This document shows, one piece after another, positions 25,838 to 47,813 of a DNA stretch of 64,000 nt. Origin of the DNA: Phoronis australis (lineage: Eukaryota > Animalia > Phoronida); assembly GCA_002633005.1 (NCBI GenBank), contig NMRA01000198.1:373282-437281 (forward strand), read 5' to 3'. Below the pieces are notes generated by a model. It had not been told where the DNA came from and ran no database searches. It saw nothing but the letters and a program-made list of their open reading frames with translations. The translations under genes were made by a program, and so were the position numbers. Numbering within the stretch: position 1 is the first letter of the stretch; each line of letters begins with the position of its first letter.

Positions 25838-25984
25838 ATGGTCATGGAGCGGTTGAAGAGGACATTTAGCTTTCGCAAGTCCAAACGGAAGGACAAAAAC
25901 AAGGTGCCAGAAAGCAGCAAGCCTCATCAGTGGCAGGAGGATGAACGTAAAGTGCGTGACGGAACGTGCAGCTTCCAAGTGTGG
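25838..25984 (+). CDS. numb: Numb coding exon 1 (MVMERLKRTFSFRKSKRKDKNKVPESSKPHQWQEDERKVRDGTCSFQVW)
   Basis: Acceptor gttttag| at 25817/25818; ATG at 25838 (or 25844); donor TGG|gtgagt; 147 nt, phase 0. VPESSKPHQWQ.DE..VR.G.CSF is the Numb N-terminal signature. Confidence 0.95.
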
Positions 25985-26480
25985 GTGAGTACAGAGTGTG
26001 GGGTGTGTGCTGATGGGTTGATGGTGCACTATCTGTGCCTCATCTACAGTAACCTGCAGTAGTGGTGGGAAGACTGTGGTGGGTCACCGGGTGCACTCTC
26101 AGGAAGACGTTTACGGGACGTTCTGCTCGGCTGGGTGATTTGCTCACGCCTGTTCCCTGTGAAGGAGCATACTAATTCGGGTCTATTTTTGCTGCAATTC
26201 TATAGGTTTTGTATTTTATTGCAGTTGTTGTGTTCAGGGCTTGGAATTTTCCGCGGAAACGCAGATTTCCGCTTTTTTCAAATGCTCTGTCCGCGCATTT
26301 TATTATATTTCGCGTAAAAAAAAATCGGATTTGATATAAAATTTCCACGGCAAATTCCTTTCTTACCGTGGCGTTGCAGACGACGTTCACCTTGAAAAGC
26401 GGAAGTTGCTCTTTATGTTTCGGAGGAACGTAAAATGTCAACATTGCCGGGGCATCTGGGTAAGCGTGGTGGGATTTTCA

Positions 26481-26546
26481 ATGGCGTCTCGTGTTATTGT
26501 AAATCGCGGCGACAAATACTATGGCTCTGCAGCCAAAAATGTGTGG
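26481..26546 (+). CDS. numb: Candidate alternative first coding exon of numb (MASRVIVNRGDKYYGSAAKNVW)
   Basis: Within an intronic CpG-rich patch (about 26.25-26.72 kb). Start context tcaATGGCG, 22 codons, ends GTG TGG|gttagg in phase 0, the same VW ending as coding exon 1. Confidence 0.5.
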
Positions 26547-27257
26547 GTTAGGAGTGGACGGAGGAGCTAAAAGGACGTAGACGCATGCGACTGATGGTGG
26601 TAACGTTTTTTTTAAAATTTTTAATCCTCTGGATTTTTGTCGGGGAAAGGTTCACATCGACCATTTCAAGGCTGGGTAGCGCGCATGATTTGGGCCGTAA
26701 AAGTTTCCGCGTTTTTTTGTCATTGGTCATTCCAAGGCCTGTGTGTTGAAAAGAGTGGGGACTTAGTGGTTGTTTGTTCAAAATTTATCCAATTAAAAAG
26801 CCATTTTGTATTGTTTAAAACTCCAACAAAAGGTTTATGTTATTGGAAAATCCTGTATGAAAGGGGTACATTTTCATTGAAGCGACCAACAAGTGGGCCC
26901 CTTTTATTCTTGCCAACTCTACTAAAAGGAATGGGTATCCTAATATCTTATTAGCACACTTCGTCAAAATTACAGCCGAGTATCCCCCAGGGGAGAAAGG
27001 CTCAGCTTCCATTGAGTACTTGGAGGGAGGTGCATGCTGTGGTCCCAGTGGTAGGGTCCTTGTGCTTGACTTGATACTGATCGCTTATCATGTTTTTAAT
27101 AGAAAAATGATGTTCACATAAACTTCCAAGGATTATAGCTGTTACATTGACAGAAAACTTGACATTCATTTGCGCGCGCAGCAATTCTGAGAATTTCTTT
27201 CAAGTTTTGTGCAATTTTATAGGAATTATTGGTTATAGGGAACTTTGGTCGAATCAA

Positions 27258-27387
27258 TGTTAATGTTGTCGTCTTAACTTTTTCACAATTTAAAGCTGCT
27301 TGCAGTGGTGATAGCATATTGTTAATGTTGTCGTCTTAACTTTTTCACAATTTAAGGCTGCTTGTAGTGGAGATAGCATATTGTTAA
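27258..27387. repeat. 62-bp tandem duplication
   Basis: TGTTAATGTTGTCGTCTTAACTTTTTCACAATTTAA.GCTGCTTG.AGTGG.GATAGCATAT starts at 27258 and again at 27320. Confidence 0.9.
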
Positions 27388-27623
27388 ATAAAGTCAATTT
27401 CAAACTAGGATTTTAAAACTACAGTAACATTCAGAAATATTCTGTAATCCAGTTATAATCACAGATATTTAAGGCATAGCACTGTTTGGGGCTTTACTAA
27501 AGTAGGTCCAACTACTATTGTTAGGTAAATGCAAAAAAATCGATTCTGGCATCTCTTAAAAAGGTCTAACAGTTGGCGTTCTGTAAACTCTCATTTTCCT
27601 CATTGTTTGCTGTTTTCTTCTAG

Positions 27624-27698
27624 TACCTTGGTGGTATTGAGGTTTTCGAATCCAGGGGTATGCAAGTCTGCGAGGAGGCGTCCAAAGTTTTAAAAACA
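27624..27698 (+). CDS. numb: Numb coding exon 2, PTB domain (YLGGIEVFESRGMQVCEEASKVLKT)
   Basis: ttcttctag|TAC ... ACA|gtaagt; 75 nt, phase 0-0. YLG..EV.ESRGM..CE.A is the Numb PTB motif. Too short for the ORF track. Confidence 0.95.
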
Positions 27699-27759
27699 GT
27701 AAGTGAACTGGTTAATACGAATAGATCAAGTAGATCAGATGTTAGGACAAAAATTCTAG

Positions 27760-28028
27760 TTTGGGATTGTGAAACTGATTACTTTCCTTGAGGTCAGAGC
27801 TTGTACCAAATTTTAGAAATGAACACTATTGGCCAATGTGGTTTCATGAACTGCCAAATCTAGTTTCAGTTCAGACAAAACACAACTGTTCTATATATGA
27901 GAAGCATGATGAACACCAATATCGCCCACGTCCCAATCTTCAGAATCAAGAAGAATTTCATATTCGGCCTGAATTTCAGTGTACCAAATTTTAAGGACTG
28001 TCCCAAACTGGAGAATTTTCTCTGCAGT
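27760..28028 (+). mobile_element. MITE family copy 2
   Basis: GTTTGGGATTGTGAAA at the left and GGACTGTCCCAAACTGGAGAATTTT at the right, shared with 32529-32874 and, inverted, with 14301-14644. Confidence 0.65.
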
Positions 28029-29114
28029 TATCTTTATTGCATTTAGTGTTTGGATTCCTAAGGGCTTGGTAGACTAAATACCAATTATTTGTATAGATTT
28101 TTCACTTTGAAAGAAAGTAGCAGTCTGATCAGTTTGGTTTGATTTTGCGTAAAGTGGATGGAAATGAATATATAAGCAGTCTTTTGTTGTGCTTGATTTT
28201 CTACCAAAATGTGTCTTATTTTCCACGTGAAATCTTAACTGGTAGTGGATTTCATAGTTTGAATATGTTAGCTCTTTTGCTCAGCACTGTTTGTGTGTTC
28301 AAGTGTTTGCTAAATTGTTGCCACCTTTTGAATTTCCACAACTGGTAGTATGTTGGTGCTTGTAAGTGCATCGTGTTTGTACCAGTGAGGCTTGATTTCA
28401 TTATAATGTTCCATCATCTGCACAACTGAACTAACTGCCTGGAAATGAGATGATTATTTTACCCCCTTCCCTTTTAAAGCGTGCTTGAACCTGGCTACAA
28501 CTAACGTGCATCAGGTTTTGTCCTCCAGTTGGGAATGCTACGTGGGTTTGGATCTGTGTTTGACATTTTTCACCTGACAGCCAATGGAGATGAAGGGTTT
28601 TAAACTTGTGTGCGTTGATTGTTTTAATCGCCTGAAATTAGATTGCCGTCTGCAGCTTTCCTGTTTCTTATTTGTTGAAATTAAAGAACCAAGTATCCTA
28701 ATTTCGTGCATTATCATTCGCTTATATGTAATAAATTACCGCTTGTCATTTATTCCATTTCTCCAAACAGAATCATTGTCTATTCTTTAAAACTGCAGTT
28801 TTTGTAAGAAATTCGAAGTCTTTTTCATTAATTGCAATAATTAACATGGCTTAGAACACACTGTCTGAGAGGCTCTGATTGAGGGTCATTAACAGAGGGT
28901 GTTCTGGCAATGAATAGACATAGGAGTCGTCTTACATTTCTATAGTCTTCCATTGCAACTATGCAAAAGTTACTTAGCTTGGGACCTGAGCCCCTTGATC
29001 TTCACCTGGGGATAGCTTGTTTATCGCATGGGGATCTCACAGGTTCTCTTGGCATGTAGACTAGTCCCCCTCTCCTCTTTGTCTCATCTCTTGTTTGGTC
29101 TTCTTACCTTACAG

Positions 29115-29192
29115 CAGTGCAAAGGAAAATATCAACGAGCTGTTCTGTATGTGTCCGGCGACGCACTGCGCGTCGTCGACGAAATCAGCAAG
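29115..29192 (+). CDS. numb: Numb coding exon 3A, PTB domain short form (QCKGKYQRAVLYVSGDALRVVDEISK)
   Basis: ccttacag|CAG|TGC tandem acceptor; donor AAG|gtttgt; 78 nt (or 75), phase 0-0. Matches the Numb AVL[WY]VS.D.LRVVD motif. Confidence 0.92.
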
Positions 29193-29581
29193 GTTTGTCT
29201 ATCTGTATGTGCATTTCACCTGTGTCTATGAGCGCAGCTTGACTTTTTTGGCCAAACCATGCTCAGGTTACAGCCAGGGGAAAAGACAATGTCAATGCCA
29301 CCTGCCATTGCACTCCACAAAATACTAAATGCTTGCCATCTATCTACGCCCGACATTTTGCACTTGGGTAGTTTTCGCACTGCTTGTGTTTATTTCCTGC
29401 ATGCTTCCTCATCCACCCAAGAGCATTATGTCTGGCTGGGAGTTAGGCTTGGTCCTGACCAAGCTGCGCTTTCATGGCCACAACACGGTACTTTGTTTGC
29501 TGGTGTGCATTCTCTGTGTGCCTTTTGTTTTTGTTGTGTTCAGTTGTTCAGTTCTCCCGTGTAGTCGTTGGCATTTTTCAG

Positions 29582-29740
29582 AACTGTAAAAAGGCCAAGC
29601 GGCTATCTTTCCGGAAGAAGCGTAAAGGGCATCGAGCAGTGCCCGCCATTTTGTACATATCGGGTGATTCGTTACGAGTCGCCGAGGACCGTCCAGGCAC
29701 CGAGTTGTCCTTCATGGGCGGAGGTGACGACCAGGCAAAG
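29582..29740 (+). CDS. numb: Numb coding exon 3B, duplicated alternative exon, long form (NCKKAKRLSFRKKRKGHRAVPAILYISGDSLRVAEDRPGTELSFMGGGDDQAK)
   Basis: atttttcag|AAC ... AAG|gtatca; 159 nt, phase 0-0, no stop, GC/CpG-rich like the other exons. Core AILYISGDSLRV is 9/12 identical to exon 3A AVLYVSGDALRV. Confidence 0.85.
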
Positions 29741-32528
29741 GTATCAGTGTAGAGTACTGCCTACTGTGAAGTCCACTGTGGCGGTATCCAATTTTGTGAT
29801 AAAGATTCGGACAACCCGTGTGTCACACTGCATTTTTAGTGGCACTTTTGGGCGCTTTAGATCTTTATGTCTAGGCATTAATGTCATGCTTTTGGTGAGA
29901 GGTCTTATATGGCATCTAAACTTGGAGGTCATCTTTGTGGATATTGGAGGCAGCAAGTGTTGAAGTTAGTGTTCTGTCATCTGTTCAAATGTTATTTGAT
30001 GTCTGTTATAACCCTTAGCTTGCTCATGTTGTTATCATTTTACATACCTGTTTCTAGTTCTCATGTCTGGTGTCTTTTGATGGATGTTGAAAATGTCTTT
30101 AATCTTGTGGATGCATTAGTCTTTTTTAATTTTTAAAATGTCAAGTGTATTAAAACATGCCTCTAGTTTTCTGGTCTCTACAGGTCTTGTTTTGTTGAAT
30201 TAAAGGTATAGTCCCTAGGTTAAACATTCGCAAATTACGACATGGGAGATTGTGTCTTTGGAATACTGCTTTACAACACCGCATCACAGAGTTCCTGTAG
30301 TGTGGATTTGTGACAGTTGCTCTCGACTCGCATACTCTCTGACATCATTCCCAGACAATCTCTGCAATAAACTGTTGGAGAATGGCAAATAGATAGGTTA
30401 GGTCATGTTGACTACATACAGGGACGTCAGATTGACTATAGCCGTGCTCAGGTTATCTAAATCTGGTTGTAACTCTTTCTAATGTTGTAACTGTTACGTA
30501 ATTGTTACCGTTTACAGCGTTGACTCAAGTTCAATAGTTTGAGCCTTGGTGCGCCATTGATTCGAATGAGTTTTGACAGCAGCGCCACCTACTGAGTGAT
30601 AACTTGCAACTGCCTTGTTCACACAGAGTTACAACGGTTGTAAACTTTTGCTAAACCACCCTCGCAGAGGGTTGTTACAGTATTCAGACCAAGAGCTTTA
30701 AAAGTCATAGCCGCTTTGGTGTGAGCAGGGTGTAAATTTTTTGTCTGGGAATAGTGCGGACGTATTTGGATTTATGCCAAGATTGTAATGGTCAGTGAGT
30801 AAGTGAGTGGAAGGTGTTTTTGATACAAGTGTACCTGGAAGCTTATGAAGTAGATAAAAGTCCAAGACTATGCCTTTAATAGTATCCTTTCGTCACAAGT
30901 TGTGGGTCAGACGTTTAGTCATGAGTTGTGGCGTTTCTTTTCTCGTCTAATTTACTCATACTTGTCCTTTATTACCTGCATGTAACCAGTTCTGGAAAAA
31001 AGAGCGGGAAAAGGTGAATTTAAATGGAGTTACTCTGTTCACTGACAACTTTCCTGTTTAAAAGTTAACACCGATTTTCACTAAAAGCTTTCTTATTTTT
31101 CATGTCTCATTTAGTTTTCTCTTGACCTCAAAAGTCACTGCAGACCTGCTTTTGGTTTGCTCATTCACATGCACTATTATGTCTCATTGTTGGATGTCAC
31201 AGCACATCATTTCTTCCAGTGGTATTTGTGTGTTCTAAGGCGTCCTCAAAAAGCTCACTGCTAGTTATTCATAATCTAAAGCACTGATAACAAGCTTGCT
31301 TTTAAGATCCCAAGTATTTACATTTCTGATAACAAATTGTCAGGTTTTGTTAAAGATACATGTAGCACCATCACTGTCCTGGTAGGGAAGCCTTATTATT
31401 TTTTAATATGGTGGATAAGTGTTACCAATTTTATACAATTATTCTATGGACTGTTGACTCAAGTTCAATGGTTGTGGTAAAATCTAGTCAATTTCGGACA
31501 ATGGTGATTGCCAAAACTTCCGTTTTCTATTTTCCGAAGGGTTTTAACATTGTTGTGAATGTTTACAAGTTTTTATAATATTGTCTCATGGTGCATTACA
31601 GCTTTAGTACTGAACTTGAAAGCAGTGATGTATTGAATGGTTGCTGCTGGTGTCTTAGGAAATAATCGAATTATAAGTGTTCACTTGTCCACCATTTCAT
31701 GTCTTGGTACGTGAGATTTTTATTTAATTTACCAAACTTCAGTGGCAATATTCACTACTACAAGCTTAATGTATTCTATCTTAAAATTTTATTTAATTCT
31801 GGGTGAGTGTGCCGTAAGTGTTAAAAATGTCTCAACTTTTGCAAATGATCGATTGACTGATGAAACAGTTTGCCTATAAGCCATTATTATTAATCTGCAG
31901 TACTTTCTAGTGTAAATCTCACACTGGAACTTGAGTTTGCTATAATTGCGGGAATATCTGGGAAGAATAACATAAAACCAGCTTTATACTGGGAGCAAAA
32001 AATAAAGTGTCCAAAATGAATTTCTCAATTTCTAAGAGTGTCCAGTACTGGTGACGTCCGAAGTCAAATAGCCCTTATAGTGAAATGTGCTACTGCGGAG
32101 AATTGGCTCTACAATAAATTTTTTTTCGTGTCTTAGGTAATTTCAGGCCTATGAGCCCTCAGACCTGCTGCTTGCAATTTAAAGGAGACAACTGTGGTTA
32201 CCACACTTGTAGGTCACTTAGGCGTCCTAGTTAGGGTTTCTAAATGTGATTCAATTAGACAATGACACCCCCTAAATGAAGACCTGATGAGTAAGTCAGT
32301 TTTGGAAAAAAAAACACAAATTAGTGTTTTGGACTTTCTAGATGTATTTACTTTATTCCGTTTTTTGTAAAGAGGATGTATAACATAATTCATTTTCTGA
32401 TTTCATGCTACTTTCCTACGTTGTCCAAGTAGCGAGTGGTACAGTGATCTCGAGGCAAATGGACTGAAGTAATAGAATAATGGGTAGCATCAACATCTGC
32501 GTGTCCCACTACGCTTTGGGACTTTACC

Positions 32529-32874
32529 TACGGTCCAGTTTGGGATAGTGAAATTTTAATTATTTAGCTCAAGGTGGGACTTAAGGCAATATTGAGCATC
32601 TCAAATTCAAGAATTAGGATAAACTAACCACCATTGATCTTGGTGACTCCAATATGGGGACACGTTGAGAAGTTGCCTTGGCAACGAGTTTCAAAAATTT
32701 TATGTATGTTTACTGCTCTGTGGATATGAAACACGGTGTTCAATATTTAAGAAATATAATGAACATCAAAATTGCCCTTGTCTCTATCTTTAAAATCATG
32801 AACTTTAAATTGTGGCTTGAATGAGGGTGTCCCAAAGTTTAGGGACTGTTCCAAACTGGAGAATTTTTACCATA
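32529..32874 (+). mobile_element. MITE family copy 3
   Basis: Inverted ends TACGGTCCAGTTTGGGATAGT ... ACTGTTCCAAACTGGAGAATTTTTACCATA. Confidence 0.65.
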
Positions 32875-34639
32875 TTTTCTGAGGATAATGACAATAGTTG
32901 AACTAAAATGAGTGAGACTGTACTGAGTGCAACACTTCTAGTGTAGCCGTTTAACTTGGAAACCACGATCTGCAAACCACAGTTGATTTACTTTTTTAAA
33001 GCTAGTCATCGGCATTGAGTGCCATTTTAATCCTTTCACATCTATATCACTCTTGCTAGATCTAATTATAGTGAATATGACACTATTGTCACTCGGGAGT
33101 TTGTAATTAAGGTCCTAAAACATGTCTGGATTGTGAAACATTTTCTGTAAGTACAAGTTTTATTGCACCCTTGAGTCTCTTAGTCAAGATCAAAGTATTC
33201 GTATAACCATTGTTTTACTTATTTATATTTAATCTTTTAATAGGGTCGATTGTGTTAACATATGTAGCCAAACCTACACATAAAAAAATGTCAACATACT
33301 TATCTGTCCACTTAGAAGATTTGTTTTCAGTTTATCGACAGATTCTTTCCAAATGCAGTAATTTGTTGTTTGGCACTCCTGCAAAAGACTGTGTGACTGA
33401 CTGTTGCAGAAAATCAATGTCTTAAGACTGATGGTGAAGGGAGTCAAGCTTATATATATCTGTCTTCAAGCAGTTGCCTCGCAGCTTGTCTTAATTGGTA
33501 GTTAATTGTCTGCTTTTGTCTGGTTCTTGAAAATGTACCTTTCTGTCATGTTTCACCATTAGACATTTTTCGTATAACAATGACATTCTCCAGTAGAGCA
33601 ATTGTCACAGTAGTAATCTTCATGTCTTTGAATAGTTAGAAGCTGTGTGTAGCTCCCAAACTCCCACGTTATTGATCACCTTTCTTATTATCTTCACTGC
33701 TCATCGTTTTTGTTGTGTGCTTTTATATTGTTTTCTCATATTTTGTTTTAACCTAACATTTTGAAATTTCAGTGCTTGAAATTGTGTTCGTTTTTGTGTA
33801 ATGTTTTTGCAGAGAAAGTATTTGAAGCTACTCCTCTTTCTATTATGTAAATGATGTCTTCTCAGAAATTGAGTAAATGTGCAGAAATTCTCCTATTTCC
33901 CACAAAAATACTGTCTATCATTCCTTTATAGGCAGGTAGTTGTCTTGCTGCAAATGATTGAAACTTTACCAAATGTCGTTTAACTACGTCAACGTAATAC
34001 ACTCAAGTTAACAATAGGTTTAAAATTTCCAAGTGTTTGTTTTTGTCTGGTATTCTGTGGTAAATAGGTCAAGAATTACTGTATTCCTCTAAAGTTGTTT
34101 AGAAACACTTTGTTTTCTCAAATGTTAATTGATATTTGAATAACTTTTTTTCATAAAATTCCGATTCTTACATGTTTTCGTCAAAAAGGGTGAAAACTGA
34201 AAAATTAAACTTTGCATTTCATTACCTTACTTTCTAATTTTGAACACCAATAACTTCAACCCAGATTCCACTCTAAAAGTCCAGTCAGTCATCCGTTATT
34301 TGTGAGTTGCACTGAAATTGTCCCAGTAAGCTGGAAAGGTCATAGCCCCCCAGTATATACAGAGTTTGGTGTGGTTTTGTAATTGTCATACACATTGATC
34401 ACGAGACGGGCCATTTGGCCATTACAAGTGAGTCAAAGATTGTGTAAGTTCTTGTTTAGTTGAATAACAAAATTATATGCCAGTTTAAATATAGTAAGGT
34501 ATTCTCTTCTCAAAATTCCCAAATAAGAGATTTGTACTTTCAATTGTCGGGCCAATCATTGTTGTAATGGTTACAAAAGAGACCTTAACACATACTGTTT
34601 CGTCTTCTCAACATTCAACCTGCCGATTTTATCCTGCAG

Positions 34640-34780
34640 GGTCTTATTGTGGACCAGACGGTGGAGAAAGTGTCTTTCTGTGCACCAGACCGCAACCATG
34701 AGAAGGGGTTTGCGTACATCTGCCGCGACGGGACCACAAGGCGTTGGATGTGTCACGGGTTCCTTGCCCTCAAGGAATCA
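34640..34780 (+). CDS. numb: Numb coding exon 4, PTB domain ([47 protein letters not shown])
   Basis: cctgcag|GGT ... TCA|gtaagt; 141 nt, phase 0-0. [13 protein letters not shown]...[14 protein letters not shown] is near-invariant in Numb. Confidence 0.98.
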
Positions 34781-37476
34781 GTAAGTGGTGTCAGTATAAC
34801 ATTTTCAGTTTTTATCGTCGTCGTTGCCGTTGTTGCAGTCATGGTGACCGTCATAGTCACCACCTCTGCTGCCGTTCACACTTAAACCTCTCATGCATGT
34901 GCCTTATGTTGTCGGCACTCCTCTACTTTTATATCATTTGGCCAAAAAAAACCCCGTTCGATGTACCTAAGTTATAGTGCATAAATTATATGTGTTGCGC
35001 TGAGGTGTGCGGCACACTTGAGCATAATTGGTCAAGCGGTTGTAAACCCACAGTTCCGTCCAAGAAGCGAACTTTTGATTTCAACCACTTTCCGTCCTAA
35101 AATTTGTCTTCTGTTGTGCCTTACTTTGGTAAGGGGTAATTTCCGGGGTTGTAAAAAAGTGACTGTGTGATATTCCTTGAGGCCGTGTTCAGCGCACACA
35201 TTATGTGGCGTGAGATAATGCTTTACTGAGCCTGGTCTTGACCAATAACGGACTGTCAAATCCTTTGAAGCTCTGAAATCACCTGACTAAGGAAGAATTT
35301 GAGACCATTTCATTACTGTAAGTAATCGTAATCAAAAATTGTATTTTTGTGATGGAAAACAGGTTTATTGCCTCTGCAACTCGAAATTTTTTTCAAATGT
35401 TTATCGATCTCGATAGCCTGAAAATCCTAAGTGAATAGGTCCCCAACGATTTTTATAAGAAACATTAAAGTAGCACTTCAAGACAATCTTTTGTTTTCGC
35501 CAACTGGAAACAGAATGAGTGAGTCTCACCAGTTTGAAATTTATCCGGAAAAGTAAAGACATTTGATAAACTACAGGCTTTTTGTTATTTGCATTTTCGC
35601 TATGAATGTTTAATGTTTATAGAAACTGACGGGAAGTTAAGTTGGTGGCATTGAATTTTTATGACGATTTTTGTTTTTTCATAAAAAATAAATTTAAATA
35701 AGTTCTGTTCTGTTTTGGAAAAAGGTGAAGCGTTTAACTAATTTTGTTTCATTAATTTTTTTATCTAAAACAGAGTTGAAAGAACGTCTTTTATTAAGAT
35801 GACTTGACAAACTGGTTATAGACCTGCTGAGTTGCCTCTTTATGTTCGTCCAACCATGACACCATTTACTGTCCATTTGCAATTGAATGCCTATTTTCAT
35901 GTATTATTTTTACTTGTCAAAAAGTCCAAGGAAGTAAAGTATTTCTCATTTGGTATGACGGCATGTTACATATGGAGGCCTGTAATATCCGTGAGATGTT
36001 CACAGGTATGCCTCAGTACTTGTAACAACACTTTGAGCCGACTCATGGCTAGAGGGAATTAAACACATCTTGGCAAGTGATTTGTTTAAAACAAGGTTAT
36101 TAAAAGTGCTGGCTATTGATTGGTTTTACGCGTCGATGGACATAGTGTTGTCTGTGCTCTCGGGAATGCTATCGTCTGGTCTAGTGTAGGGCTGGGTGAT
36201 GAATGAATCATTCGGTCACTAGTTCTCGTTGCGTAGAGAATAACTATCGCTTTCTGCGATTTCATTACTGGTGTAGCAGCAATCAAAGCAATGGACGTGG
36301 CAACAACATTTCTGAACATAGCATGAATAGAACTCTTTATATTGCAAAACTGGTTGAAATAATCATATTTTTTCATACATTTATGAGACCTTTCACAATG
36401 GTTCAAAATCTTTTTACAAACTGTTCTTTTAGGAACGTTTGTGGCTGGCTTCATAAATTGACTATTAGACACCATACCCTACTAGCCCTCATGGGTCTCA
36501 TCAAAAGTACAAGCCTCTTTTCATGGACTTGTGTGTATTTTTCTTTGTTTTTACCCTATATGACATCCTATTTTCCTGGCATGTTTGTCGTCACCTTGAA
36601 GTTGTTGGAATTTCACAACACAACGTATGGTTTGTTCATTGATACATCCAGTGACTACATTACCTCTGTCAAGCAGTTTTCAGAACAGACTGACTTCAAC
36701 AAGTTTCCAACTGATTTTGAGACTGTGATTGACAAGATATTGATTTTTTCAATATTGCTTCTTGCCCTCAGCCTGGAATTCAATCACAAGAAACGTATTT
36801 CCTTAGGTCTGTTGCCGTGTTTGTGGCTAAGATTGGATTTGGAATCAGAATTCAGTTAAAATTTATTGGATATATCCACGCACTGTTTTCCTCTCCAGTT
36901 TATTGAAGATACCTTGAGATGGTTCTGTTATTCATCTTTTGAACAATATAAGGCTTACAATAAATCAGTTGCTCAAAATGTTTGGTATATTAAAATACTT
37001 GATACAGGTGGTGAAGTGCGTTTATTACACAAACAATTGATATTAACTGGTGATGGTGCTGATGGGCACGAGTGCTTTTAAGACAATTCAGGCCATGTTA
37101 GCGGCTAGCCTTTGTCGTCGAGCAATGTAAACCTTGAACATGACACAGTGTAGTAGGTGCATTTATGAGGCAAAAGTCCTACCCCTGCTTTGTATTTCTA
37201 AATTTACAGTGCGGTAATACTTGTGTTGTTCATGTCAATGTAAAAATGTCATTTTTGTTGTCAAATCTTTACAAGTGTTGTCTATTAACAGTTGTATGGT
37301 AGACAGTGTGGTATTTTAATTGACTAAATTGTCTTAATGTTTAGGCTGTTGTTGAGAAATTCGCTGAAAATACAATCCATTGGGCTGCACATTGTGCACA
37401 TGTGAGGAGTTACTGTAGATGGTCATTACGTTGCTTTTAACTCATGTGACCCGTTTACCTGGTTTCCCGTTTGCAG

Positions 37477-37666
37477 GGTGAGCGCCTGAGTCATGCTGTT
37501 GGTTGTGCTTTCGCTATCTGTCTGGAGCGTAAACAGAAACGTGATAAGGAGTCGGGCGTCACTGTGCAGTACAGCGAGGACAAGACGAGCTTCACAAGGA
37601 CTGGCTCATTCCGTCAGACGACGTTGACAGAGAGGCTGGCTGACCCACAGTCTGCCATCGTACCAG
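37477..37666 (+). CDS. numb: Numb coding exon 5, end of PTB domain ([25 protein letters not shown]...FTRTGSFR...IVP)
   Basis: tttgcag|GGT ... CCAG|gtacgg; 190 nt, phase 0-1. [22 protein letters not shown] is a Numb signature. Confidence 0.97.
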
Positions 37667-38379
37667 GTACGGGTGCAAGGATTCGATTACTTGTCGCTGA
37701 AGAAAGGCATGGAATCAAAGTCAATTGCAAGACATTAAAATAGATTTTGTCGTCTTGCTAAAAATATAAATTCATGTAAATGAATATTTTATCACATTGA
37801 AAGGGTGTAGTCACTTAGGCTGAACTCGATTCTAAACATTTCCCAGCATGTGGAAGGATTGTTCATGTTTGCTCATGTCTTGATTAATTTAGTTGCTAGT
37901 CAACTTTTATTCAAAAACACTTCATCCGAAGTAAAACTAGCATGGGCATCACAGCTTTCTGAGACCTTTTTGAGACGGTGATGCCGTAACGACTCTTCTA
38001 GAATCTATTGGTCTATTTACGCCATCCACTGATTGGGGGGATGTGACAAGTCTTGTATTAGTGAAAAAATAGTGCAGGTGGTCTGATGCACATTGCTTCA
38101 GACCACTCTGCCAGGTCAATTAAATCAGATAGCTGAGTCGTTTCCCATCCATTTATTAATATATACATTTACACAAATTAAGACGAGAGGTGAGGAGATA
38201 CAGGCCTGTCTCAAGGGTCTAGCAGTGGAGTCTAGTGGGATTTGAACATGCGGTTATATTGGTGAAACCAGGATTTCTGAACGTACAAAGTGTCATAAGT
38301 GCCGTCCACACACAGACGTTCCCTAAAACAAGTTACTCCTGGAATGAGTGGTGGCTAGGTTTGAGTGTCGTCTGGACAC

Positions 38380-38700
38380 TATTTAAACTAGCGCAGCTTA
38401 CCCTAATTGTGACAACTTACTTCACTTTATCGAGGTGGGATAATTTGTTCTAGTGTAACTTGCATCACTTGTAATTGCTGTGAGCTGACGAAGTGGGGTA
38501 AGGCGGAAGTAATTATCAGCTGCGCTTACATGTAGACGGGTTTTCTTCTGCGCGCCATACTCTCATTAAGTGTTCAATGTCATGCATAGAGTGACAACTT
38601 CCGCCTCACCCTAGTTATCAGACATGTGTGTGTGGACACTCCACTTAAAAGTGGGTTAAGTTGAGCTAATGCAAGTTGTTCCAGGGTAGGCTGTGTGTGC
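38380..38700. repeat. Degenerate palindromic (MITE-like) element
   Basis: GGGGTAAGGCGGAAGT near 38494 is inverted as ACTTCCGCCTCACCC near 38597. Outer arms CAGCTTACCCT / AGGGTAGGCTG. Confidence 0.4.
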
Positions 38701-39290
38701 GCGGGACTGTTGAGGTGGCTGTTGCTCGCCGGGTGTAGCAGAGCTCATCTGATAACAAAATCAAGTCCAATGGGATACCATTCATTTTCAGAATTTAGTG
38801 ATGACGTGTCTGTCACTATTATGACCAACAAACAGGAATAGAAATGCCTATCACATTTTCAAAGTGTTTGCTAGTCTTGGATTTTTTCTCTACGAAATTA
38901 TATGTTTGGAATAATCAGTGTGCTTTGACATCGGTTGGACCCATTGTAGTCTCTGGGAGGTTCAGAAGGATTAAGATAGACCAGGGGCCTAGCCAGGTAA
39001 TATTTTTCGAAGTGTTTAGCAATTTGCAGCACCATGTAAATCTGGCCTGATTATTATTATTTTTATTGTTTTGATTTTGGAATTTTAATATATGTGAGTG
39101 GGTCCAAAACGTCATATTAAACGAGTGAATATTTGACAGTTGAGGAGGTTGGATTAAAAAGTATTAAAGGAAGCCATGTACATGAAGTTGAACGCCAGTG
39201 TGTTCACTTTACCTAGAAAGCAGCTACGCAACACCTTACTGCCTCTCTGAGGAATATACGAGTATAGCTAAATACTCCAAATAAATGGAT

Positions 39291-39555
39291 GACTCAGTGA
39301 TCTAGTGGTGAGAGTGCTGGACTGACAAGCAAAAGATATTTGGTTAATTCCCACGTGCGCTAAGAAATATTTTCAAGAAAGTGCTCATCAATGACCATCC
39401 TTAGTTTACTACATACCCGCGCTTGTTCTAAGAACACTATGCCACGTGAAGATGGCTGGATATATGATTGTCTGAAACATGGTGCCAGTGTAAATAGTCT
39501 AGAGGTGGTGTATACTGACCAATAGATTTTAGAAATGTGATGTCGGGCTTAAATA
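39291..39555 (+). mobile_element. Decayed tRNA-derived SINE
   Basis: A-box-like TGATCTAGTGG (39298) and B-box-like GGTTAATTCCC (39342) at tRNA spacing. The 3' end is approximate. Confidence 0.45.
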
Positions 39556-39733
39556 TTTCATTTGAATTGAAAAATATGCTTCTTTGTTGCACTGCTCTTT
39601 TATTTTCTGTGTGTTATCTCTGGGTATCCAAGAGAATTGGTTGTTAACATGGGCTGGTGTGTGGCTTCCTGAAACAGAACATGAAATAAATCAAATTGCA
39701 CACATTGTTCTTAACATCAGCATTTTTCCACAG

Positions 39734-39979
39734 AACCAGTCAGCCCTGTGGCTGCGGTGGGCGTGACCCAGGCAGCGGTGGAGACCAAGCCCGTGCAGCG
39801 GCCGCACGCCACCCAAGACATGCTCTACCGCCAGGGGTCATTCCGCGGATTCTCCAAGCTGCAGGAGGCAGCGTCACCATTCAAGCGCCAGCTCTCACTC
39901 CGCCTTAATGAGTTGCCGTCTACGCTGCAACGACAGAGTGACTGTGGTGGTGTGGAGGGTCCTGGTGCCAATGGGCCAG
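39734..39979 (+). CDS. numb: Numb coding exon 6, NumbF region (RPHA...RQGSFRGF...[20 protein letters not shown])
   Basis: ttccacag|AA ... CCAG|gtgggt; 246 nt, phase 1-1. Carries the conserved RQGSFRGF and [16 protein letters not shown] phospho-motifs. Confidence 0.96.
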
Positions 39980-40123
39980 GTGGGTTATCAGAAATTTCTG
40001 TTGAATAGTATGGAATTGATGTGAAATTAATAGTGACAGCTTAGTAAAGATCTGTCACAGATCAAGCTCTCGTCAACCGTTTACAGCTTCTTGACAACAC
40101 TCGTACTCGTGCCTGGTGATACA

Positions 40124-41408
40124 TTTTTATGCGCCCACATATTTATATGTGGACGCATTATGCCGTCATCTCCGTCCGTCCGGGTGGCGTCCGTCCGCCG
40201 TCCGCAGCTTTATCTCCAAAACCCTTTGACATACGTTCATGAAATTTGGCACATATGTTTCATTCATGAATGGGACAGCATGTGCGAACTTTCAGACGAT
40301 TCCGACTACGGGTGTGCCCCCTAGTGGCAATTTAGTTTTTTACACTTACCTTTGTATCTTCAGAAGTCCTGAACGGATTTTCATGAAATTTGGAATGTAG
40401 GCACCTATTACACCTATTAGTGAGATGACGCTATCCTCCCGATTTCAGATGGATTCGACATAGTTTACGCCACCTAGTGGCCATTTTTAGTGTTTTCGAG
40501 TTGTTTTTTGTGCGTCCACCCCTCTATCAACCAAACCGCTCAAAGAATGATTGTGAAAATTGGCATGTATATGCTTACTATGTAGAGGACGGTTGACGAT
40601 GATTTTCAGACGATTTCGACTACTGTTGCGCCTCCTAGTGGCAGTTTTTTTTTTGCGCCTATGGCTGTATCTTCTAAACCGTTAGCAGGATCTTTACGAA
40701 ATTATGTATATTTATATGATGTTAACAATGGAAGATGACGAATTTTAGACGGATCCGACTACCGGTGTGCCCCCTAATGGCAATTTTAGTTTTTTATGCT
40801 TACCTTTGTATCTTCAAAAGTCCTGAACGGATTTTCATGAAATTTGGTATGTAGGCACCTATTAGTGAGATGACGCTATCCTTCCATTTTCAGATGGATT
40901 TGACATAGTTTGCGCCACCTAGTGGCCATTTTTACTGTTTTCGAGTCTGTTTTTGTGCGTCCACCCCTCTATCAACCAAACTGCTCAAAGGATGATTGTG
41001 AAAATTGGCATGTATGTGCTTACTATAAAGAGGACACCTGACAATGATTTTCAGACGATTTGGACTACTATGGCGCCTCCTAGTGGCAGGTTTTTTTTTG
41101 CGCCTATGGCTGTATCTCCTAATCCGTTCGCTGGATCTTTACGAAATTTAATAAGTGTANTTCAACGCTCCGCGTTGCTCTTGTTACTGTTTTTGAGTCT
41201 ATTTTTTGGCGTCCACCCCTCTATCAACCAAACGTTTTGCCCCTAGCCTATTGAGGACACAATGACCATGCCTTTCCATTTTGCAAAGTACAACATACTA
41301 CATATATGCCCTCTACTGGCCACTTGATGGTACCAATAAACAACCCTAGAAGGATACTGTATACGGTGCAATTGTGGGCGCATTTCAATGCTCTGCGTTG
41401 CTCTTGTT
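40124..41408 (+). mobile_element. Non-autonomous Helentron-like element (HINE/DINE-1/pearl-type), copy 1, with internal higher-order tandem repeat
   Basis: 5' TTTTTATGCGCCCACAT...ATGTGGACGCAT hairpin, then (CCGT)n microsatellite and ~150-bp monomers. 3' subterminal inverted repeat GTGGGCGCAT, short hairpin CAATGCtctGCGTTG and CTCTTGTT end. A single n at 41160 marks a join. Confidence 0.8.
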
Positions 41409-41735
41409 CCTTTGGTTACTAGTTTCTTGTTTCTTTCTATTAGTAGTTCATGCTTGGGTGTTATCAACCAGCAACTAACTAATACAGTTCGACTCAGTGC
41501 TTTTGGAAAGCAAAACTTAGTTCTACCAAATATTCTTGGGGGTGTTCTAGTATGACTCAATGTTAAAAGAAGGAGAGTAATTATTGAACTTCAATGGGCT
41601 TGATAAAACAACTATATAAGTAAATTTAGTCATTGCTAAAATAAGCACTGTGTGTGTGTTTAGTGTAAAATACAAGGTTAAAACTTTGTAGCTGTCAGGT
41701 TTCCCAGTACTGACCACCACTGTCTTTGTTTACAG

Positions 41736-41906
41736 CGAGTCCAATAGCAGAAGTGTCACCATCAAAAGAGCGAGCGGAAGAAAATGCTGACAGCATAGCG
41801 GCCCTGTGTCAGGAGTTGACTTCTGGGCTGTCGGCTCTATCCTCTGATGACCCTTTCGCCACAGTGCCGAAGTCTCCAACGACAACACCACAGCACACCC
41901 ATCAAA
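41736..41906 (+). CDS. numb: Numb coding exon 7 (ASPIAEVSP...DSIAALCQELTSGLSALSSDDPF...HQ)
   Basis: tgtttacag|CG; weak donor AAA|gtatat in the phase required by the next exon; 171 nt, phase 1-1. DSI..LC.[EQ] and DPF motifs occur in Numb proteins. Confidence 0.85.
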
Positions 41907-42119
41907 GTATATATAAACCTTTTGCAATATATCATTACAATAAAAACAACAAGATGTTTTAACCATGACTTGTTTTAGCGGGTATGTCCACTATTCTTAA
42001 GCTGCAATTTAAGACTGACGAGCCCAGGATGTAGGTTTTATACCATTTTTGTACACAACAGCATCATTGATTAAACCAAGATAAATCGTAGCTGGCCAGG
42101 GTCTGATCTTTTTACTAGA

Positions 42120-42347
42120 AATCAAACTCAAACTCATTTTGGGAATTTCGCACTCAAGATAAGTATCAGTCTGTGCTCTAGTACATTGTGGTTTATGTAC
42201 ATGAGTTTCTAGTTCATGTTCACACTTGATGACCTCTACAAACAAACTAAAGTAAGAACTTGGAATTTCGAGTAAAAATGCAGAATTTCCAATCCAGACC
42301 CGAACTTTTAGCGTTAATGCTGGGGTCATCAAATGCGAACTATGACT
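42120..42347. mobile_element. MITE-like repeat, copy in the last numb intron
   Basis: TTAATGCTGGGGTCATCAAATGCGAACTATGA matches the reverse complement of TCATAGTTTGCACTTGATGACACTAGCATTAA at 44728. Internal inverted CACTTGATGACC / GGTCATCAAATG. Confidence 0.6.
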
Positions 42348-42977
42348 TGACGGTTATCCGTAGGAGTCAGTATGTGCTCAAGCATGGAATAATAGACACT
42401 TCTCTTGCAGTAGCACAAAAATAGAATCGGAAATGCAGAAAATTGTTTCGATTTTGAGAAAAAAAGGTTTGACCTGGGTCCTGTTTTTTTGAAAGTAGTC
42501 AGTGGTACAGTATTTTTTAGTTTATCACTTTTTAAACAAAGATAATCTGAGATGGACAAAAATGATGCAAGATGTGTTTTTTTACTCATCGCTTGGCACA
42601 ACATGGTGTTTCAAACCTTGCTTGCCCTTTATTATGTTCCTTTGTGGAGCTTTTCAAGAAAAAAACCAGTCTTTGGCAGGAATTGACGGTCCTGGGCGTT
42701 TTGTTTAGTTCAGTTGGTGAGCGTAGATACAGATCAGCACCACCTATGTTCTTTGGCATTAATCATGTTCAGTTTTTTTTTGACTACAGTACTCCATCAA
42801 AATGGAGTTAACTAGTTGTGTTAACTGTGTTAAGATCACCATCGTATTGGTTCTAAGTGGTATCAATGTTTCAACACAGCCGTTTGTTGAGGGTCATATT
42901 CTTCAGTGGGTGTATATCCTGTTCTCTTCACATTCATTCTTTTTTATACCTTATTGATATTTTGTATTGCTTTGTAG

Positions 42978-43543
42978 CCATTTCCTCCGTTCATTCCACA
43001 CCAGTCCACCAGCAGCAGCAACAGCAGAACATCAACCCGTGGGCACAGCACTCAGCGACACCTAGTGCAGACTTTTGGCTCAGCACGTCACTGACTCAGA
43101 CAGCCAGCCCGACACCCGCCACCCAGCCAACGTCATTCGTCAATGGCAACTCTTCGTTCATGGGAGCTGCGGTGCCGGCAGGATTCCATGGCTCTCCGCA
43201 GCCTCACCATTATCATCACCACCAGATGGCCGTTGGCCACGCCCGAAGTCATTCCATCGATAGCAGCGACTTGTTCTCATCGCAGCGGAAGCCAACGCTG
43301 TCTGAGCTCGCCCGGCAGAACACGGTACAAAATGGAACGAGCGCTTTTGGCCCATCTACTAACCAGTGGCAGACGTTGTCTGCTAGTCATAGTCAGACAG
43401 CAACTGCATTCGATCCGTTTGATGCTGCCTGGGCAACACGAAAAACAAACACGACAAGCAGTGTGGGAGGTGGCTCAACTACGAATCCCACGAACCCTTT
43501 TGCCAGTCCAGGATCAACCAAGGCGTTTGAGGTCAAGCTTTAA
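42978..43543 (+). CDS. numb: Numb last coding exon (poly-Q, NPW, RSHSID, DPF, NPF, C-terminal KAFEVKL*)
   Basis: tttgtag|CC in phase 1; stop TAA at 43541-43543. DPF (alpha-adaptin), NPF (EH-domain) and the terminal FE.[KE]L are Numb hallmarks. The summed CDS is 1614 nt with exon 3A (537 aa) or 1695 nt with exon 3B (564 aa). Confidence 0.95.
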
Positions 43544-44895: not shown

Positions 44896-47813
44896 AAAGT
44901 AGAACTAAAAGTGTTGCAAATAATTTTATTGTCAAGAACAGCAACATGCGATCTCCATACCTGGGTACGTACCAGCTGGAATAACAAGCATACCTGGCTA
45001 TATATCATCCATCTGGCATGTCTGGTTCTATACTATCTAGCATAAATGTCTGGCTTTTTCTAGTGGTGATAACATCCATATCGGACTTTATACTGTCTGG
45101 GATACCCTCCTTGTGTAGGATAACACCCACGTCTAGTTTTATACCAGTTAGGATAATGCCCATGTCCAACTATACCAGCTAGAATAACGCCATGTTTGAC
45201 TCTCTTGTATCATAGATTGAGGCTAAACACTTTCGAGTTCTACTTATCAAAAATATTGCAATTTCGTGATTGTTGCCTAAGTGACGATAACATGATACAG
45301 GGAAATTAACTATGATTTTTCTGGCTCTAGAGTATTATTTGATTTTTTTTTGCATTTTTGTCATGGTTGTCATTTTTTTCAGGAAACTGCTTGTGAATTA
45401 ACTTTTTAGGGAACAAATGTCTCAGTTTCTTTGATTTAGTGTTGGATGCATTTCATAAGTCAAAAGATGGGATCCTTTTTATGTGTAAAACAGTCTGTAA
45501 ATATTCCAGTGTGTGCTTAGTCATTTGAAGACGTGTTCGCCTAAACTGTGCAACACAGTAATCAGTCATCATTCTACTCTATTTACCTGTAGTTCTGTGA
45601 TGTAGATTTTGATTTTATGCACTCTTATACTTTTACACAAATTTCCATCCATTTTTTTGCATCCAGTGTTTCTGTAGACACTAACATGCGAGTGTTTATG
45701 GATTACATTATTTTACTTGCATTCATTTTATCCGTTGTAGATTATTCTGTGTTTCTTTATGTTGATTTTATGTATTGTTAGGTAGGTTTTGGGCCTGCAG
45801 GTGGCTGTTCAGTTTTTGAACGGTGTAGGTAGAATTTGATCAATTCATCAATGCTATTGAGTATTAAGGATGTGGTATTTCATATTCGTTCGCCTTTGTG
45901 GTGTGTCCATACTAAATATCACTTATTGGTATCTGCTAAGTTGTTTGACATTCATTTCTTCTTGCATATTTCAGTTGGCAAAATCATACCTAATTGTTTT
46001 TGATGTATATATTTTCAAGATTTTAAAATATATGGACAGGCTCTGACGAAAACTAATATTGCCTGTGTTCTTGCATTGGAAAGGTACAAGGAAGCCTAAG
46101 CACAGGTGTAACCAATCAAGATTTGTGGTCAGTGTGTAACTTGTAAATGTGGCATGACGGGCATTATTTGTTACGTAATGACAGAGCCTGGCCATGTATT
46201 TTATTGGCGTGATAAGTGAAAGTCTCGCGTTTTGAGGACCAGTATTAATTACAGTTGGGTTTAATGGGTTTTGGCCGTTCCTGTTTTGTATTCAGGTATA
46301 TTCACTTGTATAGGTATCAGCTTAATGCTTACTGCTCAGCATGGAAATTGGCCATTATTTCTCGCACTGTTGAATTGTTTCAGTCAGTGTGTGTATCAAC
46401 ATTCAGAGCAAAGGATCAACGCAGTATCGCCTTGGTTGTCGTTAGCAGCACTAATGTGTGAAGGTGTGTCAGTGCTTTTGTAGCTATTGGGTAGTGTTGT
46501 ATTCAATATGTTAAACTGTAATCAGTTGCAATATACTCTTTTCATCAATTTATGCAAAATGAATGTATGGTTTTCAGTAAAAATCCCGTGCATTTTCGTG
46601 TCAAATGAGGTTCATTTAGGTTTTTTCATCCTTGTTGATTCACATGTAATTATATGATACTATTTAGGATAATAGTTGAATATAACGTACCCACATTTTG
46701 AGAACCAGTTTGATGCCAATTATTCAGTAGAGGAAAGTGGTTATCAAAATGCAGGCACATTATATTAGCCTGTTTTGTTCAAACTGATTTATGCTTGTTG
46801 GATGTTTTACTCTGTGATGGCCACCGACGCTGTTTTGTTCCTCTCCAAATTCAGGATGTGCTAATGAAAGATAGTTGTTGTCTAATGCATTATGCTTACA
46901 AGGACATGTTGCACACATGCCTTTATTGTGTATATTTGTGTATCAATATCAGTTACTGATTGAATTAAAATGGCGGTGCAGTTCGTGAAACATGTAAATA
47001 CAGGAATTAAGAGACCATAAAATAATTTTGTTATAATGTGAACATTAGCTGACAAGAGATGACTGTTTGTGTAATATGTCAGATTGGAAATAGAGACATT
47101 TCTCAGCTATGTTGTGTGCTTGTATTGATTGACCTAACCATGTGGCACCTAAGACCACCAAGCTTTATTCAAGATTGACTTGAAAATTGACCACCAATCA
47201 TTTGGCATACTTAAAGTTGATCTTTAAATTTCCTGCTATGTGAAGTGGTCAATTTTTGAGTTGATTAATGTTTGATCATGTGTGCTTATGAAAAAGTGAC
47301 ACTCGTTGCGTTGCAATTTTCAGTTATAGGTTGAATGAAGCTAGTTCACACCAAGTGAAGCATAACCTTGGTGCAGTGCATTGAATATTTCAAGCAGTTT
47401 TGCTGATGCATAAATGCTTCATTCCGCTCGAGGTACCTTTGCTATGGACGGCCACATTACGAGTACGCAGTGTTTACATTTCAGCTTTCTGTTTGACTTG
47501 GATCACAGTGACAAGCACTGTGTGGAAAGTGCCACAACTTTCAATTATTTAAACTTCTGCATTAAGTTTCTGTACCAGCGTCTTAATTGATGTACCCTAT
47601 TTGAAGCGAGTTCAGTGACCGAGTGAAATGTCAAGCAACCACTTAACACCAATCAACTCATCAGGGACTATTCCTTTGAGAAATTGGATGTTTGTGGCAG
47701 GAGTATACATTGATGGGTACTTACAGCAAGTATTTTTTGCGGATAGGATGAAAAACGAAAGCAACCACAAAATGACTTTCTTCTCACTGGTTGGCAGTGG
47801 TAAAGGCTTTTTA

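What the first reader, a model, noticed from the sequence alone, without database searches (positions are those of the whole stretch)
29115..29740. Tandem duplicated, probably mutually exclusive exons give two versions of the Numb PTB domain
Seen: two phase 0-0 exons 389 nt apart, each with intact AG/GT sites and an open frame, encode the same PTB segment. 3A is QCKGKYQR-AVLYVSGDALRV-VDEISK (26 aa). 3B is NCKKAKRLSFRKKRKGHRAVP-AILYISGDSLRV-AEDRPGTELSFMGGGDDQAK (53 aa). The core is 9/12 identical with conservative changes, while the codons have diverged widely, which points to an old duplication kept under selection. 3B adds 13 residues before the core and 14 after it. Established: vertebrate Numb makes PTB-long and PTB-short forms with an 11-aa basic/aromatic cassette at this same point, after the helix and before AVLWVS, and the cassette affects membrane association. 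Inference: this lineage reached a similar switch by a different route, exon duplication. Including both exons would keep the frame but repeat two beta strands, so exclusive use is expected. I do not know of a description of this arrangement but cannot search for one.
Basis: partly seen in the sequence, partly recalled or inferred. Interest (0 to 1): 0.88.

Follow-up and report, generated by a model that had tools for sequence, protein, structure and literature searches.

The report
Swappable duplicated exons in invertebrate Numb
In this invertebrate the cell-fate protein Numb is made in two forms from two duplicated exons that are both spliced into its RNA, apparently one or the other, and the longer exon, also kept in lamp shells and moss animals, adds a positively charged loop that likely acts as a membrane-binding switch like the Numb insert published as a chordate invention.

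Summary
Real and conserved. Exons 3A (29115-29192) and 3B (29582-29740) encode the same two PTB strands. In three RNA runs each is spliced to both neighbours (E2>3A 19 reads, 3A>E4 8, E2>3B 23, 3B>E4 23). No 3A>3B or skip-both join was listed, but depth is low, so strict exclusion is likely, not proven. Lingula RefSeq isoforms swap the same pair; two bryozoan-type loci carry 3A-3B in tandem; Watersipora and Bugula proteins use 3B. 3B always adds a basic loop (+7 to +10, motif RxSFR[RK]K) at the alpha2-beta2 site of chordate exon 3, plus a weakly acidic beta3-beta4 loop. The motif resembles Numb's N-terminal Ser7 kinase site, so I infer a phosphorylation-sensitive membrane-binding switch (untested). 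A 2019 paper calls PTB-long a chordate invention, absent in invertebrates; nine literature searches found no description of either arrangement, and the scan's index showed no earlier finding. New variant of a known kind.

The parts
25844..25984 (+). Coding exon E1 of numb (N-terminal basic motif RTFSFRK, start of PTB); start codon chosen by homology, upstream exons not defined
   Evidence: tblastn to Lingula Numb; junction to 27624 in 9/14/24 reads
27624..27698 (+). Exon E2 (PTB strand 1 and helix alpha2), common upstream exon
29115..29192 (+). Exon 3A, 78 nt, phase 0-0: short form of the beta2-beta3 segment; tandem acceptor NAGCAG, only 29115 listed in reads
   Evidence: E2>3A 3/6/10 reads; 3A>E4 2/4/2
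29193..29581 (+). 389-nt intron between the two exons; no 3A>3B join listed
29398..29403 (+). TGCATG (Rbfox-type motif, label recalled); only GCATG in L066, absent in L042; about 0.14 expected by chance in 389 nt; weak lead
29482..29566 (+). UG-rich tract before the 3B acceptor; candidate regulatory element; also in L066, not in L042/L045
   Evidence: 29 UG trimers, reached by 1 of 571 background windows (probably the tract itself); measure chosen after seeing the tract
29582..29740 (+). Exon 3B, 159 nt, phase 0-0: long form of the same segment
   Evidence: E2>3B 2/4/17 reads, 3B>E4 3/4/16, one contig E2-3B-E4
29582..29644 (+). 3B basic extension, 21 aa, net charge +10, predicted disordered alpha2-beta2 loop
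   Evidence: model of the Lingula 3B form
29600..29620 (+). RLSFRKK motif (Ser codon 29606-29608), conserved as RxSFR[RK]K in 3B of all five named proteins and three loci; resembles the N-terminal Ser7 context of vertebrate-type Numb
   Evidence: Ser7 as kinase site from PMC11889595 passages
29645..29680 (+). 3B core, paralogous to 29139-29174 of 3A (strands beta2-beta3)
29681..29740 (+). 3B tail, 20 aa, net charge -3, predicted beta3-beta4 loop; length and sequence variable across species (13-20 aa, -1 to -3)
34640..34780 (+). Exon E4 (PTB beta4 onward), common downstream exon
37477..37666 (+). Exon E5 (PTB C-terminal helix); acceptor read-supported, donor predicted
39734..39979 (+). Exon E6 (NumbF region), predicted
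41736..41906 (+). Exon E7, predicted
42978..43543 (+). Last coding exon with DPF and NPF motifs and stop, predicted; 3A model gives 535 aa, all introns GT-AG

Best explanation
3A and 3B are old duplicated exons of numb that are each spliced between E2 and E4, likely one or the other, giving a short and a long PTB domain; the long form adds a basic loop after helix alpha2 that likely binds acidic membrane lipids and would be switched off by phosphorylation of its RxSFR[RK]K serine. Shown: both exons, their four junctions, their conservation, and the insert's position and charge. Predicted: both cores supply the same two beta strands and the insert is a disordered surface loop (model of the Lingula form). 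Inferred: strict exclusion (about 0.85), regulated choice between samples (about 0.6), lipid binding (about 0.6), kinase control by aPKC/PKC (about 0.4). Exclusion is likely enforced by RNA-binding proteins acting on the 3A-3B intron and 3B acceptor (about 0.5), because frame-based decay, U12 sites, a long AG-free zone and strong intronic pairings were not found.
For: Junction reads in three raw-read runs and one contig; no 3A>3B or E2>E4 row in a table with no hidden rows. Lingula RefSeq X1/X2 carry 3B, X3 carries 3A in the same slot. Tandem 3A-3B-E4 with AG/GT and open phase 0-0 frames in L042 and L066, L066 grouping with Watersipora 100/98; 3B in Watersipora and Bugula proteins. 0 of 209 stored proteins with a recognisable core have two cores (290 examined). 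L042 vs L045 3B: 2 silent, 0 replacement changes, introns about 6% apart. AlphaFold2 of Lingula X1: core = strands 90-97 and 100-105, insert 75-87 pLDDT under 50, fold matches Numb PTB structures. Insert lies where human exon 3 lies (PMC5800818 passages). Basic-hydrophobic score 0.54-0.61 for 3B forms against 0.34 for 3A forms (scale recalled). Human exon 3 gives PIP2-liposome and plasma-membrane binding (PMC13248759; PMC11889595); phosphorylation of S7 and other sites releases Numb from membranes. 3B share 5/10, 8/18, 33/45 junction reads in X1, X2, X3; Fisher p 0.003 on distinct starts.
Against: Depth is low (about 18-19% of each run read): the tool lists a joint only from 3 reads at 2 starts, so up to 2 reads per run of 3A>3B could be hidden; upper 95% bounds are 12% of 3B-containing transcripts if truly zero and 37% in the worst hidden case. 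In X3, E2>3A has 10 reads but 3A>E4 only 2 (5 reads begin at 29193, probably one fragment). The sample difference was pooled after seeing the data, reads may span both junctions, tissues are unknown, and on raw upstream reads alone p = 0.20. Only the window's 3B passes the recalled 0.6 BH threshold; homologues score 0.54-0.59. 3B has one aromatic residue against the aromatic-rich human insert. The window's N-terminus already carries a similar basic motif (score 0.56), so both forms may reach the membrane. Model confidence is moderate (mean pLDDT 50.7, PTB blocks 54-80, 20 sequences) and is for Lingula, not the window. Candidate splicing elements are not shared by L042/L045. No binding or phosphorylation was tested.
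Confidence: 0.6

Rival explanations
1. The exons are exclusive, but the 3B loop is mainly a fuzzy protein-binding surface for acidic partners (as human exon 3 is for MDM2, SNX9 and LNX), not a lipid anchor.
For: Human exon 3 binds MDM2's acidic region through basic and aromatic residues, and Ciona exon 3 can replace it. Same loop, same charge here. Not exclusive of lipid binding.
Against: 3B is poor in aromatics, which drive the MDM2 contact; its conserved element is a kinase-like Ser motif absent from the human insert. No partner sequences from these animals were at hand.
Confidence: 0.2
2. The 3B basic stretch is a nuclear localisation signal, so exon choice sets nuclear versus cytoplasmic Numb.
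For: Two basic clusters (KKAK...RKKRK) fit a bipartite NLS pattern (pattern recalled; sequence).
Against: Cluster spacing is not kept in L066 or Lingula, whereas the Ser-Phe motif is; the loop sits at a known lipid-facing basic patch.
Confidence: 0.07
3. 3A and 3B are independent in-frame cassettes; some mRNAs carry both, giving a PTB with a spare hairpin, and exclusion is only a tendency.
For: Both lengths are multiples of 3, the 389-nt intron is spliceable, no hard enforcing mechanism was found; listing threshold and depth leave room.
Against: No such join listed; 3B upstream and downstream junction counts match (23 and 23); 0 of 209 proteins with two cores; Lingula isoforms swap (3 of 4 cluster members read).
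Confidence: 0.1
4. 3B is a decaying or neutral duplicate that is spliced by accident.
For: Tail of 3B is variable; 3B is absent from 27 of 29 loci that span 3A to E4.
Against: About half or more of junction reads use it; open frame and invariant motif across brachiopod and bryozoans; silent-only changes.
Confidence: 0.02

Closest known systems
Chordate NUMB exon 3 (PTB-long/PTBi; 33 nt in vertebrates, 36-39 nt in Ciona and Branchiostoma; PMC6778778, PMC5800818, PMC11889595, PMC13248759)
   Same: Optional basic, flexible insert between helix alpha2 and strand beta2 of the Numb PTB domain, set by alternative splicing at the same intron position.
   Different: Here the insert comes fused to a duplicate of the next exon, chosen instead of the short exon; it also lengthens the beta3-beta4 loop and changes core residues; it carries an RxSFR[RK]K serine motif and few aromatics. 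No sequence homology to chordate exon 3 was shown.
Tandem-duplicated mutually exclusive exons as a class (e.g. FGFR2 IIIb/IIIc, alpha-tropomyosin, Dscam1: recalled; class papers PMC5740500, PMC9741552, PMC9013439 seen only as search listings)
   Same: Adjacent homologous exons, same phase, swapped to give two versions of one structural element; ancient and conserved.
   Different: Copies differ twofold in length (78 vs 141-159 nt), the swap mainly delivers inserted loops, and none of the four classic enforcing mechanisms was found.
Drosophila Numb N-terminal basic-hydrophobic motif and vertebrate Ser7/aPKC control (PMC11889595 passages)
   Same: Basic stretch with an embedded Ser in an RxSFRRK-like context.
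   Different: There constitutive and outside the PTB; here a second copy inside the PTB, switched by splicing; activity untested.
Lingula anatina RefSeq 'protein numb isoform X1/X2/X3' (XP_013414276, XP_013414278, XP_023931694)
   Same: The same 3A/3B swap is present as automated isoform annotation.
   Different: A database entry only; I found no paper that notes it.

Membership tests
Numb family | N-terminal Dab-like PTB, NumbF region, C-terminal DPF/NPF motifs | tested here: met
   E4 hits are Numb with PF00640 and PF06311; whole gene aligns to Lingula Numb, DPF and NPF in the last exon; 535-aa open model
Tandem-duplicated mutually exclusive exons | Adjacent homologous exons encoding the same structural segment, same phase | tested here: met
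Tandem-duplicated mutually exclusive exons | Each exon spliced to both common flanking exons | tested here: met
   four junctions in 3 of 3 raw-read runs
Tandem-duplicated mutually exclusive exons | The two exons are not joined to each other and not both skipped | tested here: inconclusive
   neither join listed, but threshold and depth allow 12-37%; 0 of 209 proteins with two cores; Lingula swap
Tandem-duplicated mutually exclusive exons | Similar exon length (usual prediction criterion, recalled; not strictly defining) | tested here: not met
   78 vs 159, 141, 150 nt
Tandem-duplicated mutually exclusive exons | A known enforcing mechanism: frameshift/NMD, U2/U12 mismatch, steric block by a distant branch point, or docking-selector pairing | tested here: inconclusive
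   Lengths divisible by 3; no U12 donors; AGs at -19, -32, -40 before 3B; introns 184-1634 nt; duplexes no better than 12 crude shuffles in 15 tests, best 1 of 12. Protein-mediated exclusion cannot be tested here
Chordate NUMB exon 3 (PTB-long) | Insert between helix alpha2 and strand beta2 | tested here: met
Chordate NUMB exon 3 (PTB-long) | Encoded by a separate short cassette exon (33-39 nt) added to an unchanged next exon | tested here: not met
   3B is a 159-nt replacement exon; no cassette between E2 and 3A in the window. The annelid-type exon of 54-60 nt does have this layout
Chordate NUMB exon 3 (PTB-long) | Basic and aromatic composition | tested here: inconclusive
   basic +7 to +10, but a single Phe against the human insert
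Chordate NUMB exon 3 (PTB-long) | Confers PIP2/plasma-membrane binding and MDM2, SNX9, LNX binding | not testable with these tools
   needs liposome, localisation and pull-down assays

The most novel reading that the evidence does not exclude
The PTB-long switch of Numb is not a chordate invention but an ancestral bilaterian feature: one basic insert at the alpha2-beta2 intron, kept as a cassette in chordates and annelids and fused into a duplicated, mutually exclusive exon in lophophorates, where a splice choice adds a second kinase-controlled membrane anchor to a cell-fate determinant. The alternative, three independent inventions at one loop (two if the annelid cassette and the 5' part of 3B share an origin), is more likely and still notable.
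Probability: 0.15. Interest if true: 0.82.

Novelty: new variant of a known kind. Interest (0 to 1): 0.63.

Why it matters
The field treats the long PTB form of Numb as a chordate novelty tied to MDM2/p53 control (PMC6778778; repeated in PMC13248759, 2026), based on one mollusc and one annelid among lophotrochozoans. Here two lophotrochozoan groups build a basic insert in the same loop, by an exclusive duplicated exon (brachiopod, bryozoans, this animal) and by a cassette (annelids). That makes the loop a repeatedly used, or very old, regulatory site and allows a direct test of whether membrane targeting or MDM2 binding came first. The exon pair is also a candidate rare genomic character for the debated brachiopod-phoronid-bryozoan grouping, though it may be a retained older state.

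Tried and rejected
No whole genome is held for this window, so no second numb copy or assembly check was possible. 3B alone against the 5.8-billion set found nothing (9 candidates) and a region search with Lingula 60-124 found only itself (41 candidates): short queries lack power, as Lingula and Watersipora 3B were missed, so these blanks say nothing. The look-up of sequencing runs listed no indexed RNA holder; the runs came by species label. 3A was too short for a locus search. The ESM Atlas gave no answer. Enforcing mechanisms not found: NMD frame rule, U12 sites, long AG-exclusion zone, docking-selector pairing. TGCATG and UG tract are not shared by L042/L045. No relic cassette between E2 and 3A in the window. 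Timing: 22-column exon trees put all 3A copies together (99/98; 91/83 with more taxa) and with flatworm exons (98/92), apart from 3B, but AU tests do not reject a lophophorate-only duplication (p 0.119, 0.188). The first gene tree lacked exon E6 in the window row through my error; redone. PMC2831892 and PMC10970066 were irrelevant. No complex prediction was sent: no partner sequences. Scan index: nothing on this locus or arrangement.

Full report
Observation. The window holds a numb gene on the + strand, coding from 25844 to 43543; the 3A model is an open 535-aa frame with GT-AG introns and aligns to Lingula Numb throughout. Between E2 (27624-27698) and E4 (34640-34780) lie 3A (29115-29192, 78 nt) and 3B (29582-29740, 159 nt), both AG/GT and phase 0-0, 389 nt apart. 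Their 12-residue cores are 9/12 identical, with 8 of the 9 shared residues on different codons. The 3A core scores 51 on 3B and 25 on the next-best place in six frames of the window.

Expression. Four runs were offered by species label; three are stranded raw reads, of which 18-19% was read, one is contigs. Junction reads in X1/X2/X3: E2>3A 3/6/10, E2>3B 2/4/17, 3A>E4 2/4/2, 3B>E4 3/4/16; one X4 contig runs E2-3B-E4. In one search no joint rows are hidden and neither 3A>3B nor E2>E4 appears. The tool lists a joint only from 3 reads at 2 starts, so this is not a zero: upper 95% bounds for double inclusion among 3B transcripts are 12% (if truly none) to 37% (if 2 hidden per run). In X3, E2>3A (10 reads, 5 starts) exceeds 3A>E4 (2); five reads begin at 29193, whose G fits the first base of E4 or the intron but not of 3B (my reading). 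The 3B share is 5/10, 8/18 and 33/45; X1+X2 against X3 gives p 0.003 on distinct starts, 0.014 on the upstream junction alone and 0.20 on raw upstream reads (pooling chosen afterwards, tissues unknown). Regulation is suggested, not shown.

Conservation. Lingula anatina RefSeq X1 and X2 carry a 3B-type segment and X3 a 3A-type segment in the same slot (3 of 4 cluster members read). Watersipora X1 and X2 and Bugula neritina carry 3B. Of 80 metagenome loci (best 80 of 116 found), 29 span 3A to E4 as genomic DNA; 2 of 29 (L042, L066) have 3B between them with intact sites (141 and 150 nt), and L045 has 3B-E4. L042 3B is 85% identical to Watersipora and L066 groups with Watersipora 100/98. The 27 without 3B are 24 clitellate-type loci (many near-copies; L057 groups with Helobdella 100/97), L033, L065 and one bivalve-type locus, L061. 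Six Saccostrea isoforms, Aplysia and Tegillarca show only 3A; these are proteins, not genome checks. 26 ecdysozoan-type loci have one core each. L042 and L045 differ in 3B by 2 silent and 0 replacement changes while introns differ by about 6%. Among 290 stored proteins, 209 have one core and none has two. The window's own protein is nearest to Lingula (65%, branch support only 82/84), so it is a lophotrochozoan and probably a lophophorate; not proven.

A second arrangement. Annelid-type loci lack 3B but 11 of 11 that span E2 to 3A hold a separate phase 0-0 exon with R[LM]S[LFM]R[RK]K; 11 measured copies are 54-60 nt. It is spliced in front of 3A in L001/P0031, P0137 and the Paralvinella model. 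This is the layout of chordate exon 3. Capitella, Helobdella, P0036 and P0086 proteins lack it, but I saw no included/skipped pair within one species, so its alternative status is unshown. The window has no such exon.

Structure and motif. An AlphaFold2 model of Lingula X1 (20 sequences, mean pLDDT 50.7) ends helix alpha2 at 67, leaves 75-87 below pLDDT 50, places the 3B core as strands 90-97 and 100-105 and the tail before strand 120-125; it matches Numb PTB structures best. The human insert aligns to the same place and is described as a flexible alpha2-beta2 loop in a basic patch (PMC5800818 passages). The 3B extension is 21-23 aa, +7 to +10; the tail 13-20 aa, -1 to -3; a basic-hydrophobic score (scale and 0.6 threshold recalled) is 0.54-0.61 for 3B forms, 0.53-0.57 for cassette forms and 0.34-0.35 for 3A forms. 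The invariant part is RxSFR[RK]K, which matches the context of Ser7 in vertebrate-type Numb (P0176); S7 phosphorylation by aPKC helps release Numb from membranes (PMC11889595 passages). Human exon 3 confers PIP2-liposome and plasma-membrane binding (PMC13248759 passages). Hence the inferred mechanism: exon choice adds a second, phosphorylation-sensitive membrane anchor inside the PTB. No binding or phosphorylation was tested; a protein-binding role is the main rival.

How exclusion is kept. Both exons keep frame, donors are not U12-type, AGs lie at -19, -32 and -40 before 3B, the intron is 184-1634 nt in three species, and intronic duplexes are no better than crude shuffles. A TGCATG at 29398 and a UG-rich tract before 3B (shared with L066, not L042/L045) point weakly to RNA-binding proteins.

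Age. 3B shares V at -2, E at +13 and D at +14 with ecdysozoan exons, where 3A has derived residues. On 22 columns all 3A copies form one group (99/98) and join flatworm exons (98/92) apart from 3B, which favours an old duplication with losses; a lophophorate-only origin is not rejected (AU p 0.119 and 0.188). The pair is at least as old as the brachiopod-bryozoan split. Its use as a marker for Lophophorata (recovered in PMC13674499, abstract seen; disputed in PMC10883361, listing only) needs wider sampling.

Literature. PMC6778778 (main text read, parts 1-4 of 6; figures and FigShare supplements not seen, and its alignments might bear on this) concludes that PTB-long is a chordate invention, absent in invertebrate proteins, with Lottia and Capitella as its only lophotrochozoans. 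The 2025 review has 0 hits for 'mutually exclusive', 'mollus' and 'lophotroch'. Nine searches (in 11 and 66 'numb' also matched 'number') found no description of duplicated or cassette PTB exons in invertebrate numb; subscription journals are mostly not covered. The arrangement exists as automated RefSeq isoforms for Lingula.

Verdict. A real, expressed, anciently conserved exon pair, very likely mutually exclusive, that gives invertebrate Numb a long PTB form at the site of chordate exon 3. It works like PTB-long in position and charge but is not shown to be a member of that family. New variant of a known kind; interest 0.63.

Noticed in passing
L027, L029, L031, L032, L036, L038, L048, L049, L054-L056, L058, L060, L078; P0031, P0104, P0137: Annelid-type numb has a separate 54-60-nt basic cassette-like exon between E2 and 3A, at the position of chordate exon 3; skipping within one species not seen.
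   Followed up: partly
window 29112-29117: Tandem acceptor (CAGCAG) at 3A; only the first AG (29115) is listed in reads; the second would drop one Gln.
   Followed up: partly
window 25982-25984 and 27633-27635: At the E1/E2 join the protein reads FQVW-YLGG where relatives have R/K and C; the junction is read-supported.
   Followed up: no
window 26234-26741: Abundantly transcribed, polymorphic repeat in intron 1, far deeper in RNA than numb, mostly one strand, with loose ends at both borders; looks like a short interspersed element.
   Followed up: no
window 27787-27821, 27997-28019, 32600-32870: Short repeat fragments matching abundant transcripts on both strands.
   Followed up: no
window 11036-11704: Two 335-nt tandem copies, 99% alike; recent duplication or assembly artefact.
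   Followed up: no
window 40037-41590 and 47612-49231: Related repeat-derived ORF text occurs in both regions, the second beside an N gap.
   Followed up: no
P0168 (Macrostomum), P0214 (Paragonimus): Flatworm Numb models lacking part or all of the exon 3 segment; probably gene-model errors, possibly skipping.
   Followed up: no
L042 about 1865-1895; L066 789-845 and 1077-1131: A hairpin-forming stretch before 3B in L042 (seen by eye, weaker in L045) and nested inverted repeats after 3B in L066; not shared with the window.
   Followed up: partly
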